The notes beneath the pieces were generated by a model, which saw only the letters and a program-made list of their open reading frames with translations, made no database searches and was not told the origin of the DNA. A DNA stretch of 44,975 nt from a virus. Shown here piece by piece: positions 1 to 44,975 of this stretch. Location: positions 1 through 44,975 of IMG/VR virus record IMGVR_UViG_3300031539_000078. One strand, 5' to 3'. Made by a program: the position numbers and the translations under genes. Every line of letters begins with the position of its first letter. The stretch's first letter is position 1.

Positions 1-127
1 TACCAGAATATACACCTTCCGCAGAGGGTAGACGTAGGATTATTGAGTCAAGATTAAAACGTGGCGAGCCTGTATCTGCAAAGTTACTGGCAGAGTTTCC
101 TGATTTAGCTAAAGTTGCCCCTGAAGT
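1..127. repeat. Terminal direct repeat, identical to 44849-44975 (circular closure or terminal redundancy)
   Basis: Both 127-nt strings match base for base when read side by side. The unique length is therefore 44848 bp. Confidence 0.97.
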
Positions 128-2189
128 TGCTAAACCTGTTGGTAAAGTAGCGACAGAGCAAGCATTTAAGGCTGGGGCTTTAATTAAAGTTACGGAGAAT
201 ATACCTATATCTCCCATTGAACTTCCCGATAAGGGAACATCTTTATTTAATAAGGGGTGGAGATATAACCAAGCAGAGAAAACTTGGTATGAGCCAAGTG
301 GGACAGTTTCCGAAGTTGTTGCTGAGACTGGGACTTATACACCCGAAACTATTGCCGGGGTAGAGGATTGGCTTACTTCTAGTGAGGAGGTTGAGGCTTT
401 AGGAGCTGCTAAACCACCAATTAAGCCACCACCCCCTCCATCAGAATCCCCCCTATTTGCAGGGAAACCAGTAGGGGATCCAATAGCTAAATTAAATGAG
501 CTTCTTAAACAAGCAAAGCCAATAAGACGAAAAATTGAAACAGCCTATACCGCAGAAAGGGCAAAAAGAATTGCCAAGGTAGATGAGTTTATTCAAGATA
601 CTATTGATAAAGTTGGGGGAGAAGAGGGGTATAAAATAATTTTATCAAAACTGAAGGGAACATTACTTCCCCCAGAAGGTAAAATTGCCTTTGAACCAAT
701 TAAGGCGAAATTAAGTGCAGATGAATTAAAAGCCCTTTATATTAGGACTTGGAAACATCCTTATTTGGATAATTGGGAAAAAATATCTGCTGCTGATGGT
801 TTGACTGATTTATTAACGGGTGCAATTCCCCAACCCAAACAATTGGTTCTATTAGAGGAAATATATGGGACAGATTTAATTAAGAACATTCTTTCTAAAA
901 GGGTATGGGGAGCCAAAGCCATAGACTTCGCAGTAGAAGCTATGAACGTACCTAGAGCAATATTGGCAACTGCCGATATGTCGGCATTCTTAAGGCAAGG
1001 TATTATTCCGGTTATTGCTCATCCAAGAATTGGGGCGAAGGCAATTGGCAAAACCTTTCAATTTGCCCTCAAGCCCAAAATATTTGAACAATATTTTAAG
1101 GAAGATTTACCCAATGATCCCCTTTATGCCTTAATGAGAAAAAGCAAATTAGCAATTACTGACCCATTTAAGGCAAGAATGGCAGGAAGGGAAGAGCCAT
1201 TTATTTCAAGATTCCTGCAAAAAATTCCCATCCTTAGAATTCCCGTGACCTTTGCTGAAAGGTCTTATGTTGGTTTTCTAAATAAAGTAAGGGTTGACCT
1301 TTTTAAGTCTTGGGCTAATGAAGCGTTATCAAAAGGATTTAGCCCTATTAAAGACATAGAACACTTTAAGGCTATTGCTACAGTTGTTAATACTTTTACG
1401 GGTAGGGGTGCAATAGGAAAATTAGAAGGAATTACGCCAGTATTGAATACTATTTTCTTCTCACCAAGATTAATATCGGCTCGGTTTAATGCCTTAAATC
1501 CTGTTTGGTATGCCCACATGCCAAAAGAAATAAGGAAAAAAGCTATTACTGATTTTGCTCTATTTGTATCAGCAGGATTAACTACCTTGGCTTTGATTAA
1601 ATTATCGGCCGGAGATGAAGTTGGTGTAGAAACTGATCCAAGAAGTTCCGATTTTGGGAAAATAAGAATAGGGAATACCAGGTGGGATATTTGGGCTGGA
1701 TTTCAGCAATGGGTAAGAGTGTTCGCTCAAATAATTACCGGGGAAAGAAAAAATACCACAACGGGTGAAATTGTTTCTCTAAACAAAGACGAATATCCCT
1801 TCACTACAAGGAAGGAAGTCTTATTAAGATTTATTGAGGGGAAATTAGCTCCAGTTCCAGCCTTAATAAATGAACTAATATCTGGGGGGAAAACCTTCAC
1901 GGGGGAAGATATAACCTTTGAAACGGTAGCAAGGGAAAAGTTTATTCCTATGTATATTCAGGATATAGCCGAGGCGTATGCTGATGGTGGATTGGGTAGA
2001 GCAGTGGGGGCTGGTATTCCAGCATTCTTTGGAGTGGGCGTTCAAACTTGGGGAGAAAAGGCTAAATCAAAAACGAGTGCCATATTAGAGTTTTATGCTC
2101 AGGGCAATTATGGTAAGTCTTGGGATGACCTTACTGAAGGGGAGAAAACAGCCTTATTAAATAAATATCCTGAATTAAGGGAGGGTTAA
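1..2189 (+). CDS. C-terminal ~729 codons of a 1302-codon giant virion-associated protein whose ORF wraps the window junction (N-terminal part at 43129-44848)
   Basis: The frame starting at base 3 is open to TAA 2187-2189, checked codon by codon up to 765. It is in phase with 43129-44975 through the overlap. Track ORF 765-2189 is only its tail. Contains the hydrophobic segment AITDFALFVSAGLTTLALIKL. Confidence 0.8.
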   Translation, partial: PEYTPSAEGRRRIIESRLKRGEPVSAKLLAEFPDLAKVAPEVAKPVGKVATEQAFKAGALIKVTENIPISPIELPDKGTSLFNKGWRYNQAEKTWYEPSGTVSEVVAETGTYTPETIAGVEDWLTSSEEVEALGAAKPPIKPPPPPSESPLFAGKPVGDPIAKLNELLKQAKPIRRKIETAYTAERAKRIAKVDEFIQDTIDKVGGEEGYKIILSKLKGTLLPPEGKIAFEPIKAKLSADELKALYIRTWKHPYLDNWEKISAADGLTDLLTGAIPQPKQLVLLEEIYGTDLIKNILSKRVWGAKAIDFAVEAMNVPRAILATADMSAFLRQGIIPVIAHPRIGAKAIGKTFQFALKPKIFEQYFKEDLPNDPLYALMRKSKLAITDPFKARMAGREEPFISRFLQKIPILRIPVTFAERSYVGFLNKVRVDLFKSWANEALSKGFSPIKDIEHFKAIATVVNTFTGRGAIGKLEGITPVLNTIFFSPRLISARFNALNPVWYAHMPKEIRKKAITDFALFVSAGLTTLALIKLSAGDEVGVETDPRSSDFGKIRIGNTRWDIWAGFQQWVRVFAQIITGERKNTTTGEIVSLNKDEYPFTTRKEVLLRFIEGKLAPVPALINELISGGKTFTGEDITFETVAREKFIPMYIQDIAEAYADGGLGRAVGAGIPAFFGVGVQTWGEKAKSKTSAILEFYAQGNYGKSWDDLTEGEKTALLNKYPELREG

Positions 2190-2590
2190 TTTGATTCTAA
2201 TTCAAGGTCTTTTATGGTTTGGCCAATAGAACCTTGAATATAACCATCAATATAATTATCTCTATCTAATAATATGGGGGCACAGTATTTTTCATAACTT
2301 GGAGGATCACGCCAGCCCCTAAAATACCATTCATAAGCTTGTCGGGAGCAATCTGGTGGTGCAAAACCCCGTCCATAATAACCATCTCGGTATCCCTGTT
2401 GAAAGGATGGAGTGCCAAATGGGATATGGGGGGTAGATGGTTCTGTATTTGGGGAATATACATAATTTGTAGTTGGTTCCTGATAGTATGTGGGGCTTAC
2501 TTGTTGGGGAGATGACAGAGCCTTTATGCCCACTATTAAAATAATAAGACCAATCCCCAATAGGATACATAGAGTCCGCTGTCTGGTCAT
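2186..2590 (-). CDS. Small membrane-anchored protein (N-terminal TM helix, Tyr/Gly/Pro-rich ectodomain); moron-like
   Basis: 134-aa track ORF on the opposite strand to its neighbours. TM segment LCILLGIGLIILIVGI. It has its own promoter, and its stop codon overlaps the stop of the giant ORF (convergent). Confidence 0.6.
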   Translation of the reverse strand: MTRQRTLCILLGIGLIILIVGIKALSSPQQVSPTYYQEPTTNYVYSPNTEPSTPHIPFGTPSFQQGYRDGYYGRGFAPPDCSRQAYEWYFRGWRDPPSYEKYCAPILLDRDNYIDGYIQGSIGQTIKDLELESN

Positions 2591-2596
2591 ATTTCT

Positions 2597-2624
2597 AGTT
2601 TATCACCATCCGGATTTTTGTCAA
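2597..2624 (-). promoter_or_regulatory. Sigma70-type promoter giving a leaderless mRNA for 2186-2590
   Basis: The minus strand reads TTGACA-16 nt-TGaTAAACT-agaaat-ATG. The -10 ends 6 nt before the start codon and there is no SD. Confidence 0.5.
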
Positions 2625-2650: not shown

Positions 2651-2698
2651 AAAAGAAATAGGCCTCAAGGCTCTCCTTACTGCCTCAAGACCTATTTC
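2651..2698 (-). terminator. Intrinsic terminator-like hairpin downstream of the tRNA
   Basis: Imperfect long stem with outer 8 bp gaaatagg/cctatttc. On the minus strand it is followed by TTTTGG, giving cctatttcttttgg. Confidence 0.45.
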
Positions 2699-2720
2699 CG
2701 AAGTCTTGGGTTCTTTTACC

Positions 2721-2735
2721 CATCCGACTACCAAT
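2721..2735. repeat. 15-nt arm complementary to the tRNA anticodon arm (partner 2813-2827)
   Basis: The reverse complement of catccgactaccaat is attggtagtcggatg, versus attgatagtcggatg at 2813-2827. That is 14/15, and the mismatch would be a G-U pair in RNA. Confidence 0.8.
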
Positions 2736-2775
2736 CAATATTAATGTTAAAACACCCCCCAAACTTTGTCAAGTG

Positions 2776-2851
2776 TGGTGGAGGCAAAGGGATTTGAACC
2801 CTCAACTTTCCAATTGATAGTCGGATGCTTTCCCGATTAAGCTATGCCCCC
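2776..2851 (-). tRNA. 76-nt tRNA with encoded CCA; anticodon loop CUAUCAA, so the anticodon reads AUC (nominally Asp, codon GAU)
   Basis: Cloverleaf drawn by hand. Acceptor GGGGGCA/TGCCTCC (one G-U), D stem GCTT/AAGC, anticodon stem TCCGA/TTGGA, 5-nt variable loop, T arm GAGGG-TTCAAAT-CCCTT, discriminator A, CCA. Confidence 0.85.
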
Positions 2852-2860
2852 ACCATTTCT

Positions 2861-2869
2861 ATTATATCA
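2861..2869 (-). promoter_or_regulatory. Extended -10 promoter (TGaTATAAT) for the tRNA
   Basis: The minus strand reads TGATATAAT, and 9 nt lie between the -10 hexamer and tRNA position 1. Confidence 0.45.
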
Positions 2870-19485: not shown

Positions 19486-19530
19486 TAGGCCGTCAGGGAT
19501 TCGAACCCTGGACACCCTGATTAAAAGTCA
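19486..19530 (-). other. attP core candidate: 3' half of a tRNA-Lys(UUU) gene (anticodon loop to discriminator), with no 5' half
   Basis: The reverse complement reads TGA-CTTTTAA-TCAGG-GTGTC-CAGGG-TTCGAAT-CCCTG-ACGGCCT-A. Upstream sequence cannot form acceptor or D arms. It lies directly next to the integrase gene. Confidence 0.7.
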
Positions 19531-19560: not shown

Positions 19561-20382
19561 GTGAATAGTCAGGAATTATATCAGGAATTTATTAACAAGA
19601 GAAGGAACTCAGGTCTAAGTCCAAGAACAATAGAGGCTTATAATTATTCCATCCTGCCTTTTGTAGGATCCTGTGCTGAATTACCATGCACAGAAACTAA
19701 TGTTGAGAGTTATATCTATGATAACAGTTGGTCACAAGCGAAGCGTGCGTTTGTCTATCGTCATTTAAGAGTTTTCCTTCGATGGTATTCAAGACATTAT
19801 AAACAAGACAATCCTATTTTAGATGTATTAAAGCCTCGCACGAAACTAGAGCCAGTTCGCTACCTTACTAAAGAGGAAATTATCAGGCTTTATCAAAAGG
19901 TCTATCCAAACAAGAAACACAGGGCAATCATATTAACTTTACTTGATACGGGTATCCGAGTGGGTGAATTGCTCAGTATAAAAATCTGCAATTTAGACCA
20001 CGACATATTACAAGTGACTGGTAAAAGTGGACCACGGACGGTTGCCATTTCCCCTAGCGTCAATCAACTCCTTAAGGAAATTGCTCCTACAAATTCTGGA
20101 AAGGTTTTCGGTAACATGGATAGGCATACTGTATATCGGATAGTTTCTGGTTATTTAGAGGACATGGGTTTTGATGGTAAGCGGGGTCCTCATACATTAC
20201 GCCACACATTTGCCGTTCATGCCTTACGAAATGGGATGGACATAATTTCCGTCAGCCAAACAATGGGACATAAAACGATTGCTATGACCCAGCAATATCT
20301 GAGACTAGCACAGGGTGACATTACAGAATCACATCAAAAATACAGTCCGCTTAATTTGTTATTTGCAGAGGTTCAGGAATGA
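19561..20382 (+). CDS. int: Tyrosine integrase / site-specific recombinase (XerC/D-like)
   Basis: LLDTGIRVGEL (Arg), HTLRHTFAVHAL (HxxR) and GHKTIAMTQQYLRL (His..Tyr). N-terminal SAM-like domain LSPRTIEAYNYSI. Confidence 0.9.
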   Translation: MNSQELYQEFINKRRNSGLSPRTIEAYNYSILPFVGSCAELPCTETNVESYIYDNSWSQAKRAFVYRHLRVFLRWYSRHYKQDNPILDVLKPRTKLEPVRYLTKEEIIRLYQKVYPNKKHRAIILTLLDTGIRVGELLSIKICNLDHDILQVTGKSGPRTVAISPSVNQLLKEIAPTNSGKVFGNMDRHTVYRIVSGYLEDMGFDGKRGPHTLRHTFAVHALRNGMDIISVSQTMGHKTIAMTQQYLRLAQGDITESHQKYSPLNLLFAEVQE

Positions 20383-35246: not shown

Positions 35247-35750
35247 CTAATTTAATCTTGCCTCGAGTTGCTGAATTCTTTTCTTTAATTGCTTAATATA
35301 TCGCTTCGTTTGTATATCCACCAAATGTTGTTTCTGGGTTGGTAGAAGTTCTAAATTTTCAATGCAATTATCGCTTTTATTACCATTCTTGTGGTGAATT
35401 ACTTCCCAGGGCAACAAGCATCTTGATAAGTGTTTAGCCATTACTAAGCGATGTTCTAGAACTTGTCCATGAATATCAGCCATAGAGGAGAAGAAGTCAT
35501 TAGCACCCAATCGCACATTTATATAACCATCGGGGCGTTTATAATAACCACCTTTCCAATTATGTCCGTGGTTAGTTATGGGGTCTATGTGGCTACATGC
35601 TTGGCATAAACCTTGGAGTTTTTGTTTATGGAAGTATATGTTTTCAACCCAGCGTTCATAGCCACAATGTGGGCAACGAGCCCAGATAAATTTATTTGTA
35701 CACCGCCTATTCAGGCTTTTAGCTGTAGTAATATCACCAACACAGGACAT
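35247..35750 (-). CDS. HNH homing endonuclease, paralog 3
   Basis: CPHCGYERW...CQAC ribbon, then GQVLEHRLVMAKHLSRCLLPWEVIHHKNGNKSDNCIENLEL. ATG 35750 is preferred over the track GTG at 35762. Confidence 0.85.
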   Translation of the reverse strand: MSCVGDITTAKSLNRRCTNKFIWARCPHCGYERWVENIYFHKQKLQGLCQACSHIDPITNHGHNWKGGYYKRPDGYINVRLGANDFFSSMADIHGQVLEHRLVMAKHLSRCLLPWEVIHHKNGNKSDNCIENLELLPTQKQHLVDIQTKRYIKQLKKRIQQLEARLN

Positions 35751-35767
35751 AATATCACCCACTAAGA

Positions 35768-36098: not shown

Positions 36099-36641
36099 TT
36101 ATCCTCTTAGCCTTATCCCAATAAGGTTTTGGTTTTCTAGTTCTATAATTCTTTGTTCTAGAGCTTGCAATTTATGTTGCATTGCCATAGAGGGTAAATG
36201 GTTATTCATATTTGGGAAAAGTTCTAGATTTTCAATTCTGTTATCAGCTCTAACACCATTCTTGTGATGAACAACCTCCCAACTTTCTAAACATCTACCT
36301 AGATATTTCGCCATAACTAATCTGTGTTCCCTGAGGTACCCTGATTTTCTAGCCATCGGATAATATGGATTATCCGGTTGCAATTTTATTTCTATATAAC
36401 CGCTAGGGAGTTTATGTTTACCACCCCTCCAAGCTGGATTTGCCTTCCCACTACCTGAGGTAAACTTATTATGACATTTTAAGCACATTCCTGTGAATTC
36501 TTTTCGTTTTAAGCTATCAATTCTAACCCATCTACCTATAATGCAAACTGGGCAAATAATCCATACCTTGACTCCCCTATGGCGTCCTTTGGCGTCTATA
36601 ACTACTGCTGTTTGTCCTTGTTTTAATAATTCCTTGCCCAT
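36099..36641 (-). CDS. HNH homing endonuclease, paralog 4
   Basis: CPVC...CLKC ribbon, then GYLREHRLVMAKYLGRCLESWEVVHHKNGVRADNRIENLEL. Confidence 0.85.
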   Translation of the reverse strand: MGKELLKQGQTAVVIDAKGRHRGVKVWIICPVCIIGRWVRIDSLKRKEFTGMCLKCHNKFTSGSGKANPAWRGGKHKLPSGYIEIKLQPDNPYYPMARKSGYLREHRLVMAKYLGRCLESWEVVHHKNGVRADNRIENLELFPNMNNHLPSMAMQHKLQALEQRIIELENQNLIGIRLRG

Positions 36642-43128: not shown

Positions 43129-44975
43129 ATGGGTCTTAAATGGTGGGAACAAACAGATACAGTTGCTAGTGAAGCGAAAGCAACCCAACAGACAGCCGTA
43201 AAAGCTCTTGATTATTTAGGGGAAGCCCAAAGAACCAGGCGTGAGGCTAAGGAACAGGCAGAGGCAGAACAAGGCCAATGGTGGAAGAAATACTGGCGTG
43301 AGGAAAATCAGGCACGTTTAGAAGGGCAAGCTGTTCAAGAGTTAAAGAACGCTAGTCACGCTCTTGAGATGGCTGGTTTTGGCATAAATCAAATTCCTAT
43401 AACATGGGGAAACATTCAGGCTCAAATGAACTCTGGCTTTACTATGGCTCAACAGCTTGTCAGGCAGGGGCAATTACAACTTCGCCCACAATGGGAAGCG
43501 GAAGCTGGGAAAGAGGCTGAGCAATGGGCTAAATACCAGATAAGTTTGGGTGAAACTAAGTGGAGTGACTATAGCCCTGCCGAACAAGAAGCGATGATAG
43601 AATCTTGGCGGTCACGGATTTTAATGGAACGCCACCCTGAAGTATATGGACAACCTCCAGCACCTAGAGAAGAACCCATAAAGCCTAAATGGTATCAGAA
43701 ATTCATACCAACACGGAAAGAAGCTCTACCTGAAGGTTATGAGATGGGTAAGCCTGAGAAGTTTGTAAGGGGAATGTTTCAACCTTCCAGGGAGGAACGG
43801 GGGATTGAACTTGGGGCTAAACCCGAAGCTAAACCTGAAGTAAAAGCAGAATACCCCACGCCCACTATGTCATTAGAGCAATTTGAGCAGCAATATTTTG
43901 CCGATAAGGGTTGGGAATATGACCCCACCATACCTCGCTATATTACTCCCGTTACAGAGCTTGACCCCGTAGCGTCATTGAAAGCTCAACATATAACGAT
44001 GGCACAGGAGGAATATGCGAGAACATATGGGGCGAAAGCATTAATACAAAGCTATTTAGGCGATACTGCCAGTTTCCTTTATGCTCCTGCAAGAGCGATT
44101 AGACCAGAAGTTAAATGGGAAGAAATAACCCCAGCAGAACATGTATTAGGTATAGGGCAGATAGCCCTATATGTTATTGGGCCTGCTGCTGGGGCAATAC
44201 CAGGGGTTACTGGTGCTATAACTAGAACGGCTGCAGTAGGAACGGCTGCATCTGCTTTTACAGCCCATACAGCTATGACGTGGGATGATATGAGTCCTGT
44301 GCAAAGAGTCATATCCGTTGGTTTTGATGTTTTATTCTGGGCTGGGTTTGCCTGGTCTGCTAAGGGTCTTTCTACTGATGTTAAAGCAGCACAGGATTAT
44401 TATAAGACACCATTAGCTAAAGAAATGCCGGATAATCTAAGGGGTACGGCTTTTGAGGCGAAGTGCAAGAATCTTTATGTTGAAGCTTGTAGGGTAGGAA
44501 GAAGGGGCGATCTTGAGTCATTAAAGAGGGCAGAAAAGTTATATCAACAAATTAAGGATGAGATTATTCTGAAGGGTTATGCACCTAAAGGCGGGTGGGA
44601 GCCTTATACTCTTGCAGCGACAGGCACGCCAACAGCAGGTAATCCCACTACAACTCTGATTGTTCGGAATGTTGAGAAGATGAAAGCTACTCAACCTTCT
44701 GTTACTCCACCGATTGCTCCTGCTGTGGCTGCGGTAAAACCTACTGCAATACCCGAAAAGGTTACACCAGTTGCCCCAGAGGTTACAGGTTTATATGCAA
44801 AGCCACCAGGACGACACGAAGTACCACAATTCGGTGAGGCAGGTGCTGTACCAGAATATACACCTTCCGCAGAGGGTAGACGTAGGATTATTGAGTCAAG
44901 ATTAAAACGTGGCGAGCCTGTATCTGCAAAGTTACTGGCAGAGTTTCCTGATTTAGCTAAAGTTGCCCCTGAAGT
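43129..44975 (+). CDS. N-terminal part of the 1302-codon giant virion-associated protein (continues at base 1)
   Basis: ATG 43129 follows SD AGAGGAG. I translated the frame to the window end and found no stop, so it is absent from the track. Hydrophobic stretches IGQIALYVIGPAAGAIPGVTGAI and VISVGFDVLFWAGFAWSA. Confidence 0.8.
   Translation, partial: MGLKWWEQTDTVASEAKATQQTAVKALDYLGEAQRTRREAKEQAEAEQGQWWKKYWREENQARLEGQAVQELKNASHALEMAGFGINQIPITWGNIQAQMNSGFTMAQQLVRQGQLQLRPQWEAEAGKEAEQWAKYQISLGETKWSDYSPAEQEAMIESWRSRILMERHPEVYGQPPAPREEPIKPKWYQKFIPTRKEALPEGYEMGKPEKFVRGMFQPSREERGIELGAKPEAKPEVKAEYPTPTMSLEQFEQQYFADKGWEYDPTIPRYITPVTELDPVASLKAQHITMAQEEYARTYGAKALIQSYLGDTASFLYAPARAIRPEVKWEEITPAEHVLGIGQIALYVIGPAAGAIPGVTGAITRTAAVGTAASAFTAHTAMTWDDMSPVQRVISVGFDVLFWAGFAWSAKGLSTDVKAAQDYYKTPLAKEMPDNLRGTAFEAKCKNLYVEACRVGRRGDLESLKRAEKLYQQIKDEIILKGYAPKGGWEPYTLAATGTPTAGNPTTTLIVRNVEKMKATQPSVTPPIAPAVAAVKPTAIPEKVTPVAPEVTGLYAKPPGRHEVPQFGEAGAVPEYTPSAEGRRRIIESRLKRGEPVSAKLLAEFPDLAKVAPE
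44849..44975. repeat. Terminal direct repeat, identical to 1-127
   Basis: See feature 1-127. Confidence 0.97.

What the first reader, a model, noticed from the sequence alone, without database searches (positions are those of the whole stretch)
2776..2851. Phage tRNA with anticodon AUC (A34), under its own promoter and terminator
The cloverleaf is canonical: 7/4/5/5-bp stems, a 7-nt anticodon loop with U33 and A37, a TTCAAAT T-loop and an encoded CCA. Positions 34-36 nonetheless read A-U-C. Bacterial tRNA-Asp genes carry GUC, and A34 is normally confined to tRNA-Arg(ACG). The discriminator is A73 and position 38 is A, whereas E. coli AspRS identity elements include G73 and C38. The amino-acid identity is therefore uncertain. 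It could be a phage device for Watson-Crick decoding of GAU, which looked frequent in the ORFs I translated. It could also be a tRNA charged with something other than Asp.
Basis: partly seen in the sequence, partly recalled or inferred. Interest (0 to 1): 0.6.

Follow-up and report, generated by a model that had tools for sequence, protein, structure and literature searches.

The report
Alanine-type tRNA reading aspartate, with antisense RNA
A temperate phage carries an intact tRNA that reads the aspartate codon GAU but bears every mark for being loaded with alanine, and a small RNA built to cover its anticodon arm sits beside it, so it looks like a controlled miscoding tRNA rather than an aspartate supply gene.

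Summary
The tRNA is real. It lies on the minus strand (2851->2776), and ARAGORN and Infernal both place AUC at positions 34-36. It has G3:U70, A73, G2-C71, G4-C69 and G20, which is 5 of 5 bacterial AlaRS determinants. It has only 3 of 6 AspRS determinants. Every full-length relative found is tRNA-Ala. GAU still means Asp in the phage's own genes.

Downstream, just after a promoter-like site, an 18-nt stretch pairs with tRNA positions 25-42. It heads a predicted 87-nt RNA that ends in a strong terminator. This tRNA+RNA unit is 200/201 nt identical in a second, otherwise unrelated phage. An independent bacterial lineage (67% tRNA identity) has the same Ala-body/AUC combination. It carries its own perfectly matched 14-nt antisense element.

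My best reading is an alanine-charged GAU reader held in check by a cognate antisense RNA. Charging, expression and miscoding are all untested. This scan has noted similar hybrid-tRNA/antisense-RNA cassettes on other DNA. I found none described in print.

The parts
2861..2869 (-). Extended -10 promoter element TGATATAAT for the tRNA, ending 9 nt before tRNA position 1
   Evidence: Read from the sequence. Kept as TGGTATAAT in L005 while the neighbouring spacer differs. Inferred promoter, not mapped.
2776..2851 (-). tRNA gene, 76 nt, canonical 7/4/5/5 cloverleaf with encoded CCA and a tRNA-Ala-type body
   Evidence: ARAGORN; Rfam RF00005 68 bits; position table; 76/76 identical in L005.
2816..2818 (-). 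Anticodon A34-U35-C36 in the loop C32-U33-A-U-C-A37-A38
   Evidence: ARAGORN and the Infernal alignment agree.
2779..2786 (-). 3' acceptor strand with U70 (2782, paired with G3 at 2849), C69, C71, C72 and discriminator A73 (2779): the alanine identity set together with G20
   Evidence: Position table; determinants as listed in PMC9976931.
2744..2772 (-). Promoter-like site TTGACA-17-TAACAT directly after the tRNA 3' end. It would start transcription at about 2738-2735, the first bases of the antisense element.
   Evidence: Consensus scan, 10 of 12 matches; coordinates. Identical in L005. Inferred, not mapped.
2721..2738 (-). Antisense element UUGAUUGGUAGUCGGAUG: 18 consecutive pairs (14 Watson-Crick + 4 G.U) with tRNA positions 25-42, the whole anticodon arm
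   Evidence: Only 3 of 3000 dinucleotide shuffles reach 18. It is the best such helix in the genome apart from the tRNA's own complementary strand. The maximum is 13 among 320 other phage tRNAs.
2708..2721 (-). Small hairpin GGGUAAAAGAACCC in the body of the predicted small RNA
   Evidence: RNAfold.
2651..2699 (-). Intrinsic terminator: hairpin of about 18 bp followed by UUUU. It ends both the predicted 87-nt small RNA and any read-through tRNA transcript.
   Evidence: RNAfold, z = -3.15 for the 185-nt trailer. The one window/L005 difference turns a U.G pair into U-A.
2597..2624 (-). Promoter-like site TTGACA-16-TAAACT (TG before the -10), 6 nt before the ATG of the next ORF. It marks the edge of the conserved block.
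   Evidence: 87% identical to L005.
2186..2590 (-). 134-aa ORF with an N-terminal hydrophobic helix. It is variable cargo behind the RNA module and not part of the conserved unit.
   Evidence: No Pfam or PHROG match. L005 has an unrelated 51-aa hydrophobic ORF at the same ATG.

Best explanation
The gene is a derivative of tRNA-Ala whose anticodon arm has been replaced so that it reads the aspartate codon GAU. AlaRS ignores the anticodon and recognises G3:U70 with A73, G2-C71, G4-C69 and G20, all of which are present. AspRS needs G73, G34 and C38, which are absent. The tRNA should therefore be charged with alanine and insert Ala at GAU (inferred). It is transcribed from its own extended -10 promoter (inferred). 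Directly downstream, a second promoter-like site starts a small RNA of about 87 nt. Its 5' end is complementary to the whole anticodon arm of the tRNA, and it ends in a strong terminator. Read-through from the tRNA promoter would put the same element in the tRNA's own 3' trailer. Pairing, which is about 8 kcal/mol more favourable than the separate folds, would open the weak anticodon stem, hide the anticodon and so keep the tRNA from decoding (inferred). The two RNAs form one conserved, exchangeable module. It sits in a minus-strand accessory island of a temperate phage. Shown here: the tRNA structure, the identity elements, the tRNA-Ala ancestry of the body, the complementarity and its statistical support, the conservation pattern, and an independent second lineage with matched changes. 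Not shown: transcription, charging, decoding, and what the module is for.
For: The tRNA is real and canonical. It has 5/5 Ala determinants and 3/6 Asp determinants against the published table. The closest phage sequences are annotated tRNA-Ala reading GCA. All 5 other class-I viral tRNAs with the same T-arm and acceptor end are tRNA-Ala(UGC). The 18-bp antisense helix is reached by 3/3000 shuffles, and natural controls reach at most 13. Its four non-Watson-Crick pairs are all G.U on the transcribed strand, so the pairing works only as RNA of this strand. Cognate co-folding gains -8.0 kcal/mol, against -1.9 and -1.7 for swapped partners. The tRNA plus small RNA is 200/201 identical between two phages that share almost no other DNA or protein, against 75% just upstream and 44% in the next ORF (Fisher p 8e-15). 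The second lineage, L110/L111, sits in a bacterial chromosome. Its tRNA is 67% identical and also has G3:U70, A73, G20 and anticodon AUC. A perfect 14-nt complement to its own positions 29-42 follows a TTGATA-17-TATATT site (0/1000 shuffles exceed 11). Six of the 14 target positions differ between the lineages, and each antisense element matches its own tRNA. Published experiments show that tRNAs with G3:U70 and foreign anticodons are charged with Ala in E. coli (PMC5389517).
Against: GAU makes up 4.3% of the phage's own codons and aligns with Asp in homologues, so free Ala-tRNA(AUC) would damage the phage's own proteins. This argues for tight masking, low activity or no decoding at all. The window and L005 copies are identical, so within this lineage there is no covariation. 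The matched-change argument rests on two lineages only. Both promoters are consensus matches. The closest capsid relatives (L002-L004) have no tRNA within 6 kb, so the module is dispensable. Other Ala-body/Asp-anticodon tRNAs exist with GUC, and one of them has no partner RNA.
Confidence: 0.55

Rival explanations
1. It is a working tRNA-Asp. The host AspRS charges it despite A73/A34/A38, and the phage uses it to read its abundant GAU codons by a Watson-Crick A34-U pair, perhaps in a GC-rich host that prefers GAC.
For: U35, C36 and G10 are present. GAU is 73% of the phage's Asp codons. The one candidate host relative I could sample prefers GAC (GAT 34%). It is the phage's only tRNA.
Against: G73, G34 and C38 are missing, and the full alanine set is present. 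The body is tRNA-Ala by every similarity test. The GAU excess equals the general AT bias. Ordinary tRNA-Asp(GUC) already reads GAU. This reading does not explain an antisense RNA against the anticodon arm, nor the same design in a bacterial chromosome.
Confidence: 0.1
2. The tRNA-shaped RNA does not decode at all. The pair is a regulatory RNA duo in which the anticodon arm is only the docking site. The tRNA-like RNA could be a sponge or stabiliser for the small RNA, or an Ala-tRNA donor or sensor outside translation.
For: This avoids the cost of Asp-to-Ala errors in the phage's own GAU-rich genes. The relative L113 has an ambiguous 7/8-nt loop that may be unfit for decoding. Earlier notes of this scan report that many such tRNA look-alikes have loops unfit to read the code (unchecked by me).
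Against: Here every feature needed for decoding is intact: a 7-nt loop with U33 and purine 37, the tertiary pairs, a tRNA-Ala-type T-stem and CCA. Two separate lineages keep the same triplet AUC in the loop although the stems differ. That is unexpected if the loop sequence were only a docking site.
Confidence: 0.2
3. It is a neutral or decaying passenger: a mutated tRNA-Ala copy with a chance or leftover inverted repeat nearby.
For: It is dispensable in related phages. It is rare: one family in 2.9 million viral contigs.
Against: The tRNA is 76/76 and the unit 200/201 conserved between otherwise unrelated phages. The anticodon differs from any Ala anticodon at two positions, so it is not a single point mutant. 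The complementarity passes both shuffle and natural controls. An independent lineage repeats the design.
Confidence: 0.05

Closest known systems
Allo-tRNAs carrying G3:U70 with non-alanine anticodons (Mukai et al. 2017, PMC5389517)
   Same: Natural tRNAs that combine the alanine identity pair with anticodons of another amino acid (GCG, UUA). They were shown to insert Ala in E. coli once given a CUA anticodon. The Ser-type allo-tRNAs with Leu anticodons arrested growth when induced.
   Different: Allo-tRNAs have 8/4 or 9/3 acceptor/T geometry and long variable arms, and they come mostly from Acidobacteria. This one is a plain 7/5 class-I tRNA-Ala body in a phage with an Asp anticodon. That paper does not contain the word 'antisense'.
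tRNA-ProX / ProRSx of Streptomyces and Kitasatospora (reviewed in PMC11415595)
   Same: Natural dual-identity tRNAs whose body belongs to one amino acid and whose anticodon belongs to another. All members carry the otherwise rare A34 (AGC, AUU, AGU) and cause mistranslation in E. coli.
   Different: Those tRNAs have proline identity, A33 and other odd core features, and a dedicated synthetase gene next to them. Here the identity is alanine, the core is canonical, no synthetase is encoded, and the partner is an RNA.
tRNA(CCG) with G3:U70 in Clostridia genus RGIG3102 (bioRxiv 10.64898/2026.04.02.715157)
   Same: An alanine identity pair on a tRNA with a non-Ala anticodon, read as a change of codon meaning.
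   Different: There the whole genome appears to have reassigned CGG to Ala. Here GAU plainly still means Asp, so this is miscoding or non-decoding, not reassignment.
Ordinary phage tRNA-Ala(UGC), e.g. in Erwinia phage phiEa21-4 and other Kolesnikvirus genomes
   Same: These are the best DNA matches in the phage collection (80% over 69 nt). They have the same acceptor type, D-loop GGGA and T-arm.
   Different: Their anticodon is UGC, they sit in tRNA clusters, and none of the 320 control phage tRNAs has a same-strand helix over 13 bp covering the anticodon loop.
Antisense-RNA toxin-antitoxin pairs (type I) and the 3'ETS-leuZ tRNA-spacer sponge for small RNAs (own knowledge, not checked here)
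   Same: A short antisense RNA encoded beside its target neutralises it by base pairing. tRNA transcripts and small RNAs are known to pair.
   Different: In type I systems the target is a toxin mRNA, not a tRNA. In the 3'ETS case the spacer, not the mature tRNA body, binds the small RNA. No published case of a small RNA aimed at a tRNA anticodon arm turned up in my searches.

Membership tests
Bacterial tRNA-Asp | Discriminator G73 | tested here: not met
   Position 73 is A; determinant list from PMC9976931.
Bacterial tRNA-Asp | Anticodon G34-U35-C36 with C38 | tested here: not met
   A34 and A38 are present. Only U35 and C36 fit.
Bacterial tRNA-Asp | G10 | tested here: met
   G10-C25 is present. 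This feature is also common in tRNA-Ala.
Bacterial tRNA-Ala (by aminoacylation identity) | G3.U70 wobble pair | tested here: met
   G3 at 2849 and U70 at 2782.
Bacterial tRNA-Ala (by aminoacylation identity) | A73, G2-C71, G4-C69 and G20 | tested here: met
   All are present, as listed for Bacteria in PMC9976931.
Bacterial tRNA-Ala (by aminoacylation identity) | Anticodon NGC reading GCN | tested here: not met
   The anticodon is AUC. AlaRS does not use the anticodon, so this fails membership as a decoder, not as an AlaRS substrate.
Bacterial tRNA-Ala (by aminoacylation identity) | Actual charging with alanine | not testable with these tools
   Needs an aminoacylation assay.
Natural hybrid-identity (mistranslating) tRNAs | Identity set of one amino acid combined with the anticodon of another, in an otherwise intact tRNA | tested here: met
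Natural hybrid-identity (mistranslating) tRNAs | Demonstrated misincorporation | not testable with these tools
   Needs a reporter and mass spectrometry.
Allo-tRNA | 8/4 or 9/3 acceptor/T-stem geometry | tested here: not met
   The geometry is 7/5 in both ARAGORN and Infernal.
TadA (A34-to-I34) substrates | tRNA-Arg-type loop with A34-C35-G36 | tested here: not met
   The loop is CUAUCAA. Whether a host TadA accepts it was not tested. I34 would also read the Glu codon GAA (established wobble rules).
Antisense-RNA toxin-antitoxin module | Adjacent antisense RNA complementary to the harmful partner | tested here: met
   18-bp complementarity with a promoter-like site and a terminator. All in silico.
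Antisense-RNA toxin-antitoxin module | Toxicity of the target without the antisense RNA, and unequal stability of the two | not testable with these tools
   Needs expression experiments.

The most novel reading that the evidence does not exclude
The module is an all-RNA poison-antidote pair. The poison is a long-lived tRNA that puts alanine at GAU codons. The antidote is a short-lived antisense RNA that covers its anticodon. In a lysogen, anything that stops transcription, such as an incoming phage or loss of the prophage, would free the tRNA and cripple protein synthesis by proteome-wide Asp-to-Ala errors. The module would then act as an exclusion or addiction device. This would explain why it sits in a prophage accessory island, moves between unrelated phages, and recurs in a chromosome, with a related hybrid tRNA carried by an IS element.
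Probability: 0.12. Interest if true: 0.9.

Novelty: new variant of a known kind. Interest (0 to 1): 0.7.

Why it matters
Natural tRNAs that deliberately break the genetic code are known from only a few families, and why cells or viruses keep them is an open question. This locus is a clean and easily testable case. It has a canonical tRNA-Ala body with an aspartate anticodon and a built-in RNA that can switch it off. It is conserved to the base between unrelated phages and repeated independently in a bacterium. If the charging prediction holds, a roughly 270-bp piece of DNA (about 2651-2920) can be cloned and tested directly. Such a test would show whether regulated miscoding is used by phages. 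It would also show whether a small RNA can control a single tRNA species through its anticodon arm, a mode of control I could not find in print.

Tried and rejected
1. Full-length RNAduplex energy was useless as a statistic for the antisense pairing. Long sequences always find about -44 kcal/mol, and 465/2000 shuffles were as good. I replaced it with ungapped-helix statistics.
I replaced it with an Ala-acceptor pattern.
3. The first natural control was confounded by near-palindromic T-arms and by paralogous neighbour tRNAs. I restricted it to helices covering the anticodon loop. The 28-bp outlier in L151 comes from a neighbouring tRNA-Val with the same anticodon stem.
4. GAU reassigned to Ala in the phage: rejected. 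GAT aligns with Asp in homologues and Ala is not among the five commonest partners. Total Asp would fall to 1.6% without GAT.
5. A34 as a necessary feature of such hybrids, to escape AspRS: not supported as a rule. Two viral contigs carry Ala acceptors with GUC.
6. The tRNA as an attachment site: rejected. The attP-like tRNA-Lys half lies next to the integrase, near 19.5 kb.
7. BLAST against E. coli genomes gave no match. Rfam has no family for the small RNA. An exact search with the small-RNA scaffold found only L005. A search of 301 Dehalococcoidia genomes with the L110 cassette matched only the tRNA part.
8. Host: G001 matches the attP half best (41/42) but has about 59% GC against 42% for the phage, so it is probably not the host. 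No out-of-phylum control was possible.
10. Unpublished genomes: locus L212 (G245) was left out of the analysis. G505 appears only in the hit list.

Full report
**What is there.** The window is a complete viral genome of 44,975 bp with a 127-bp direct terminal repeat and 42% GC. It encodes a major head protein, large terminase, DNA methyltransferases, a helicase-like protein, an exonuclease and a tyrosine integrase. It is therefore a temperate tailed phage. ARAGORN finds a single tRNA, at 2776-2851 on the minus strand, with anticodon AUC. The Rfam tRNA model scores 68 bits (gathering score 29) and aligns the loop as CUAUCAA between the stem halves UCCGA and UUGGA. The standard tertiary positions are also all present.

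**Amino-acid identity.** The acceptor stem reads G1-C72, G2-C71, G3.U70, G4-C69, G5-C68, C6-G67, A7-U66, with A73. The D-loop is AAUCGGGA, which puts G at position 20. The published determinant table for Bacteria lists A73, G2-C71, G3.U70, G4-C69 and G20 for alanine, with no anticodon determinant. For aspartate it lists G73, G10, G34, U35, C36 and C38 (PMC9976931). The score is therefore 5/5 for Ala and 3/6 for Asp, and the missing Asp elements include the discriminator and the wobble base.

Similarity searches agree with this.
- The best matches in 50,697 phage records are annotated tRNA-Ala genes reading GCA.
- All five other class-I viral tRNAs that share its T-arm and acceptor end are tRNA-Ala(UGC).
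- Among 301 Dehalococcoidia genomes, its only full-length matches are a tRNA-Ala(GGC) and the hybrid tRNA of L113.

The body is a tRNA-Ala. The anticodon differs from every Ala anticodon at two positions, so this is not a single-base accident.

**The codon has not been reassigned.** GAT is 470 of 645 Asp codons. That matches the AT bias of the other NNY pairs (AAT 67%, CAT 67%, TAT 77%). In alignments with homologues from related contigs, GAT pairs with Asp in 45% of positions, and Ala is not among its five commonest partners. If the tRNA decodes, it miscodes.

**The neighbouring RNA.** Directly after the CCA lies TTGACA-17-TAACAT (2772-2744). Six bases after that -10 begins UUGAUUGGUAGUCGGAUG (2738-2721). 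It forms 18 consecutive pairs with tRNA positions 25-42, which is the D-stem end, the whole anticodon stem and the loop. Only 3 of 3000 dinucleotide-preserving shuffles of the trailer reach 18 pairs. It is the longest such helix in the genome apart from the tRNA's own complementary strand. Among 320 other distinct phage tRNAs with full flanks, the longest same-strand helix covering the anticodon loop is 13.

The four non-Watson-Crick pairs are all G.U on the minus-strand transcript. On the other strand they would be C.A. The pairing therefore makes sense only as RNA of the tRNA's own strand, not as a DNA inverted repeat. The element is followed by a small hairpin and a terminator hairpin of about 18 bp with UUUU (2699-2651). 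This gives a predicted RNA of about 87 nt with the usual build of a bacterial small RNA. No terminator separates it from the tRNA, so read-through from the tRNA promoter would place the same element in the tRNA's trailer. Co-folding favours the tRNA/small-RNA duplex by 8.0 kcal/mol over the separate folds. This ignores tRNA tertiary structure and modifications. Rfam has no family for this RNA.

**Conservation.** A second viral contig from another metagenome (L005) carries the identical tRNA. The two phages share only this roughly 430-bp block and two short stretches at the DNA level, and almost nothing at the protein level. Within the block, identity varies by segment:

| Segment | Identity |
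|---|---|
| Upstream of the tRNA | 75% |
| tRNA | 76/76 |
| tRNA end to terminator end | 124/125 |
| Terminator end to the next ATG | 87% |
| Following ORF | 44% |

Fisher's test for the tRNA-plus-trailer unit against the upstream segment gives p = 8e-15. The single difference in the unit changes a U.G pair of the terminator stem into U-A. The TGnTATAAT element upstream of the tRNA is kept although its surroundings differ. The ORFs behind the block are unrelated small hydrophobic proteins. The conserved and exchangeable unit is therefore exactly tRNA plus antisense RNA. The closest relatives by capsid protein (41-59% identity) have no tRNA within 6 kb of the capsid gene, so the module is accessory.

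**An independent second lineage.** I used a pattern that demands an alanine-type acceptor and an AUC anticodon.

| Collection | Hits |
|---|---|
| 2.9 million viral contigs | L005 only |
| Metagenome collection | three records |
| 185,579 species genomes | one |

One of the three metagenome records (L112) is the contig that also yielded L005. The other two, L110 and L111, carry a different tRNA that is 67% identical (49/73). It has G3.U70, A73, G20, the loop UUAUCAC and no encoded CCA. It lies between a PPIase gene and a DUF4139 gene, which is a bacterial chromosome context. Its acceptor stem is that of housekeeping tRNA-Ala genes of Dehalococcoidia. All 24 tRNA hits I kept among 301 genomes were tRNA-Ala.

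About 105 nt upstream on the same strand, five bases after TTGATA-17-TATATT, lies UGGAGUGAUAAUCC. This is a perfect 14-nt complement of that tRNA's positions 29-42, and no shuffle among 1000 exceeds 11. It heads a predicted 92-nt RNA with a middle hairpin and a terminator-like stem. The two small RNAs are not alike in sequence. Six of the 14 shared target positions differ between the two tRNAs, and each antisense element fits its own tRNA. Swapped pairs gain only 1.7-1.9 kcal/mol. This is the nearest thing to covariation that I could obtain.

**Other relatives.** The genome hit (L113, a Dehalococcoidia MAG) is a related Ala-type tRNA with an ambiguous 7- or 8-nt loop. It lies next to an HTH gene and an IS1595-type transposase. 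Two further viral contigs carry Ala acceptors with the ordinary Asp anticodon GUC. One of them has a 16-nt copy of its own anticodon arm upstream, and the other has no partner. A34 is therefore not a rule for such hybrids.

**How it most likely works.** Taken from established knowledge and from experiments in print: AlaRS charges any tRNA that carries G3:U70 in a suitable helix, and natural G3:U70 tRNAs with foreign anticodons inserted Ala in E. coli (PMC5389517). Inferred here: this tRNA is charged with Ala, reads GAU through an A34-U pair, and is kept from decoding by the antisense RNA, acting in cis in the precursor, in trans, or both. The cost of Asp-to-Ala errors in the phage's own GAU-rich genes makes such a mask plausible. 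It equally leaves room for the reading that the tRNA never decodes.

The purpose is open. The position in a prophage accessory island, the exchange between unrelated phages and the recurrence in a chromosome fit an exclusion or addiction device. I give that only about 12%.

**What is known.** Hybrid-identity tRNAs are published. They include allo-tRNAs with G3:U70 (PMC5389517), the tRNA-ProX family in which every member has A34 (PMC11415595), and a Clostridia tRNA(CCG) with G3:U70 (2026 preprint). An Asp-anticodon/Ala-body tRNA and a small RNA aimed at a tRNA anticodon arm did not turn up in four full-text searches.

Earlier notes of this scan describe similar hybrid-tRNA/antisense-RNA cassettes on other DNA. 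One later check priced the poison-antidote reading low. I treated these as leads. The pairing here was found and tested independently.

**Limits.** The host is unresolved. An attP-like tRNA-Lys half next to the integrase matches a Dehalococcoidia tRNA-Lys at 41/42. That genome has about 59% GC and prefers GAC, and I had no out-of-phylum control.

Noticed in passing
window 19488-19529 (minus strand), next to the integrase gene 19561-20382: This stretch reproduces the 3' half of a tRNA-Lys(UUU) gene (anticodon loop, variable loop, T-arm, acceptor 3' strand), as an attP core would. The best match among 401 Chloroflexota genomes is 41/42 to the tRNA-Lys of the Dehalococcoidia MAG that also holds L113. 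That genome has about 59% GC against 42% for the phage, so it is probably not the host. No other phylum could be searched.
   Followed up: partly
window 2186-2590 (minus) and L005 2951-3106: Behind the RNA module, both phages have a promoter-like site ending 6 nt before an ATG (likely a leaderless mRNA), followed by unrelated small proteins with an N-terminal hydrophobic helix (134 aa and 51 aa). Neither has a Pfam or PHROG match.
   Followed up: partly
window 43129-44973 continuing at 3-2189 (plus strand): One open frame runs across the terminal repeat and would give a virion-region protein of about 1300 aa. Relatives have 1500-2000-aa versions that share only short stretches with it (L002, L005).
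   Followed up: no
L113 3488-3560 (Dehalococcoidia MAG CBDBPI010000002.1): An Ala-type tRNA (G3:U70, A73, G20) whose anticodon region can be drawn with a 7-nt loop (UAU, C37) or an 8-nt loop CUUAUCAC. It lies directly upstream of an HTH_17 gene and an IS1595-family transposase. An imperfect direct copy of its anticodon arm lies 43-60 nt downstream.
   Followed up: partly
L238 1298-1373 and L239 7014-7089 (viral contigs): Two tRNAs with G3:U70 and A73 but the ordinary Asp anticodon GUC. L239 has the loop CUGUCAA, one base from the window's CUAUCAA. L238 has a 16-nt direct copy of its own anticodon arm about 180 nt upstream, which would be antisense only if the other strand is transcribed.
   Followed up: partly
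window 35247-35762 and 36099-36641 (minus strand): Two HNH endonuclease genes (PF13392) form the only other minus-strand coding block in the genome.
   Followed up: no
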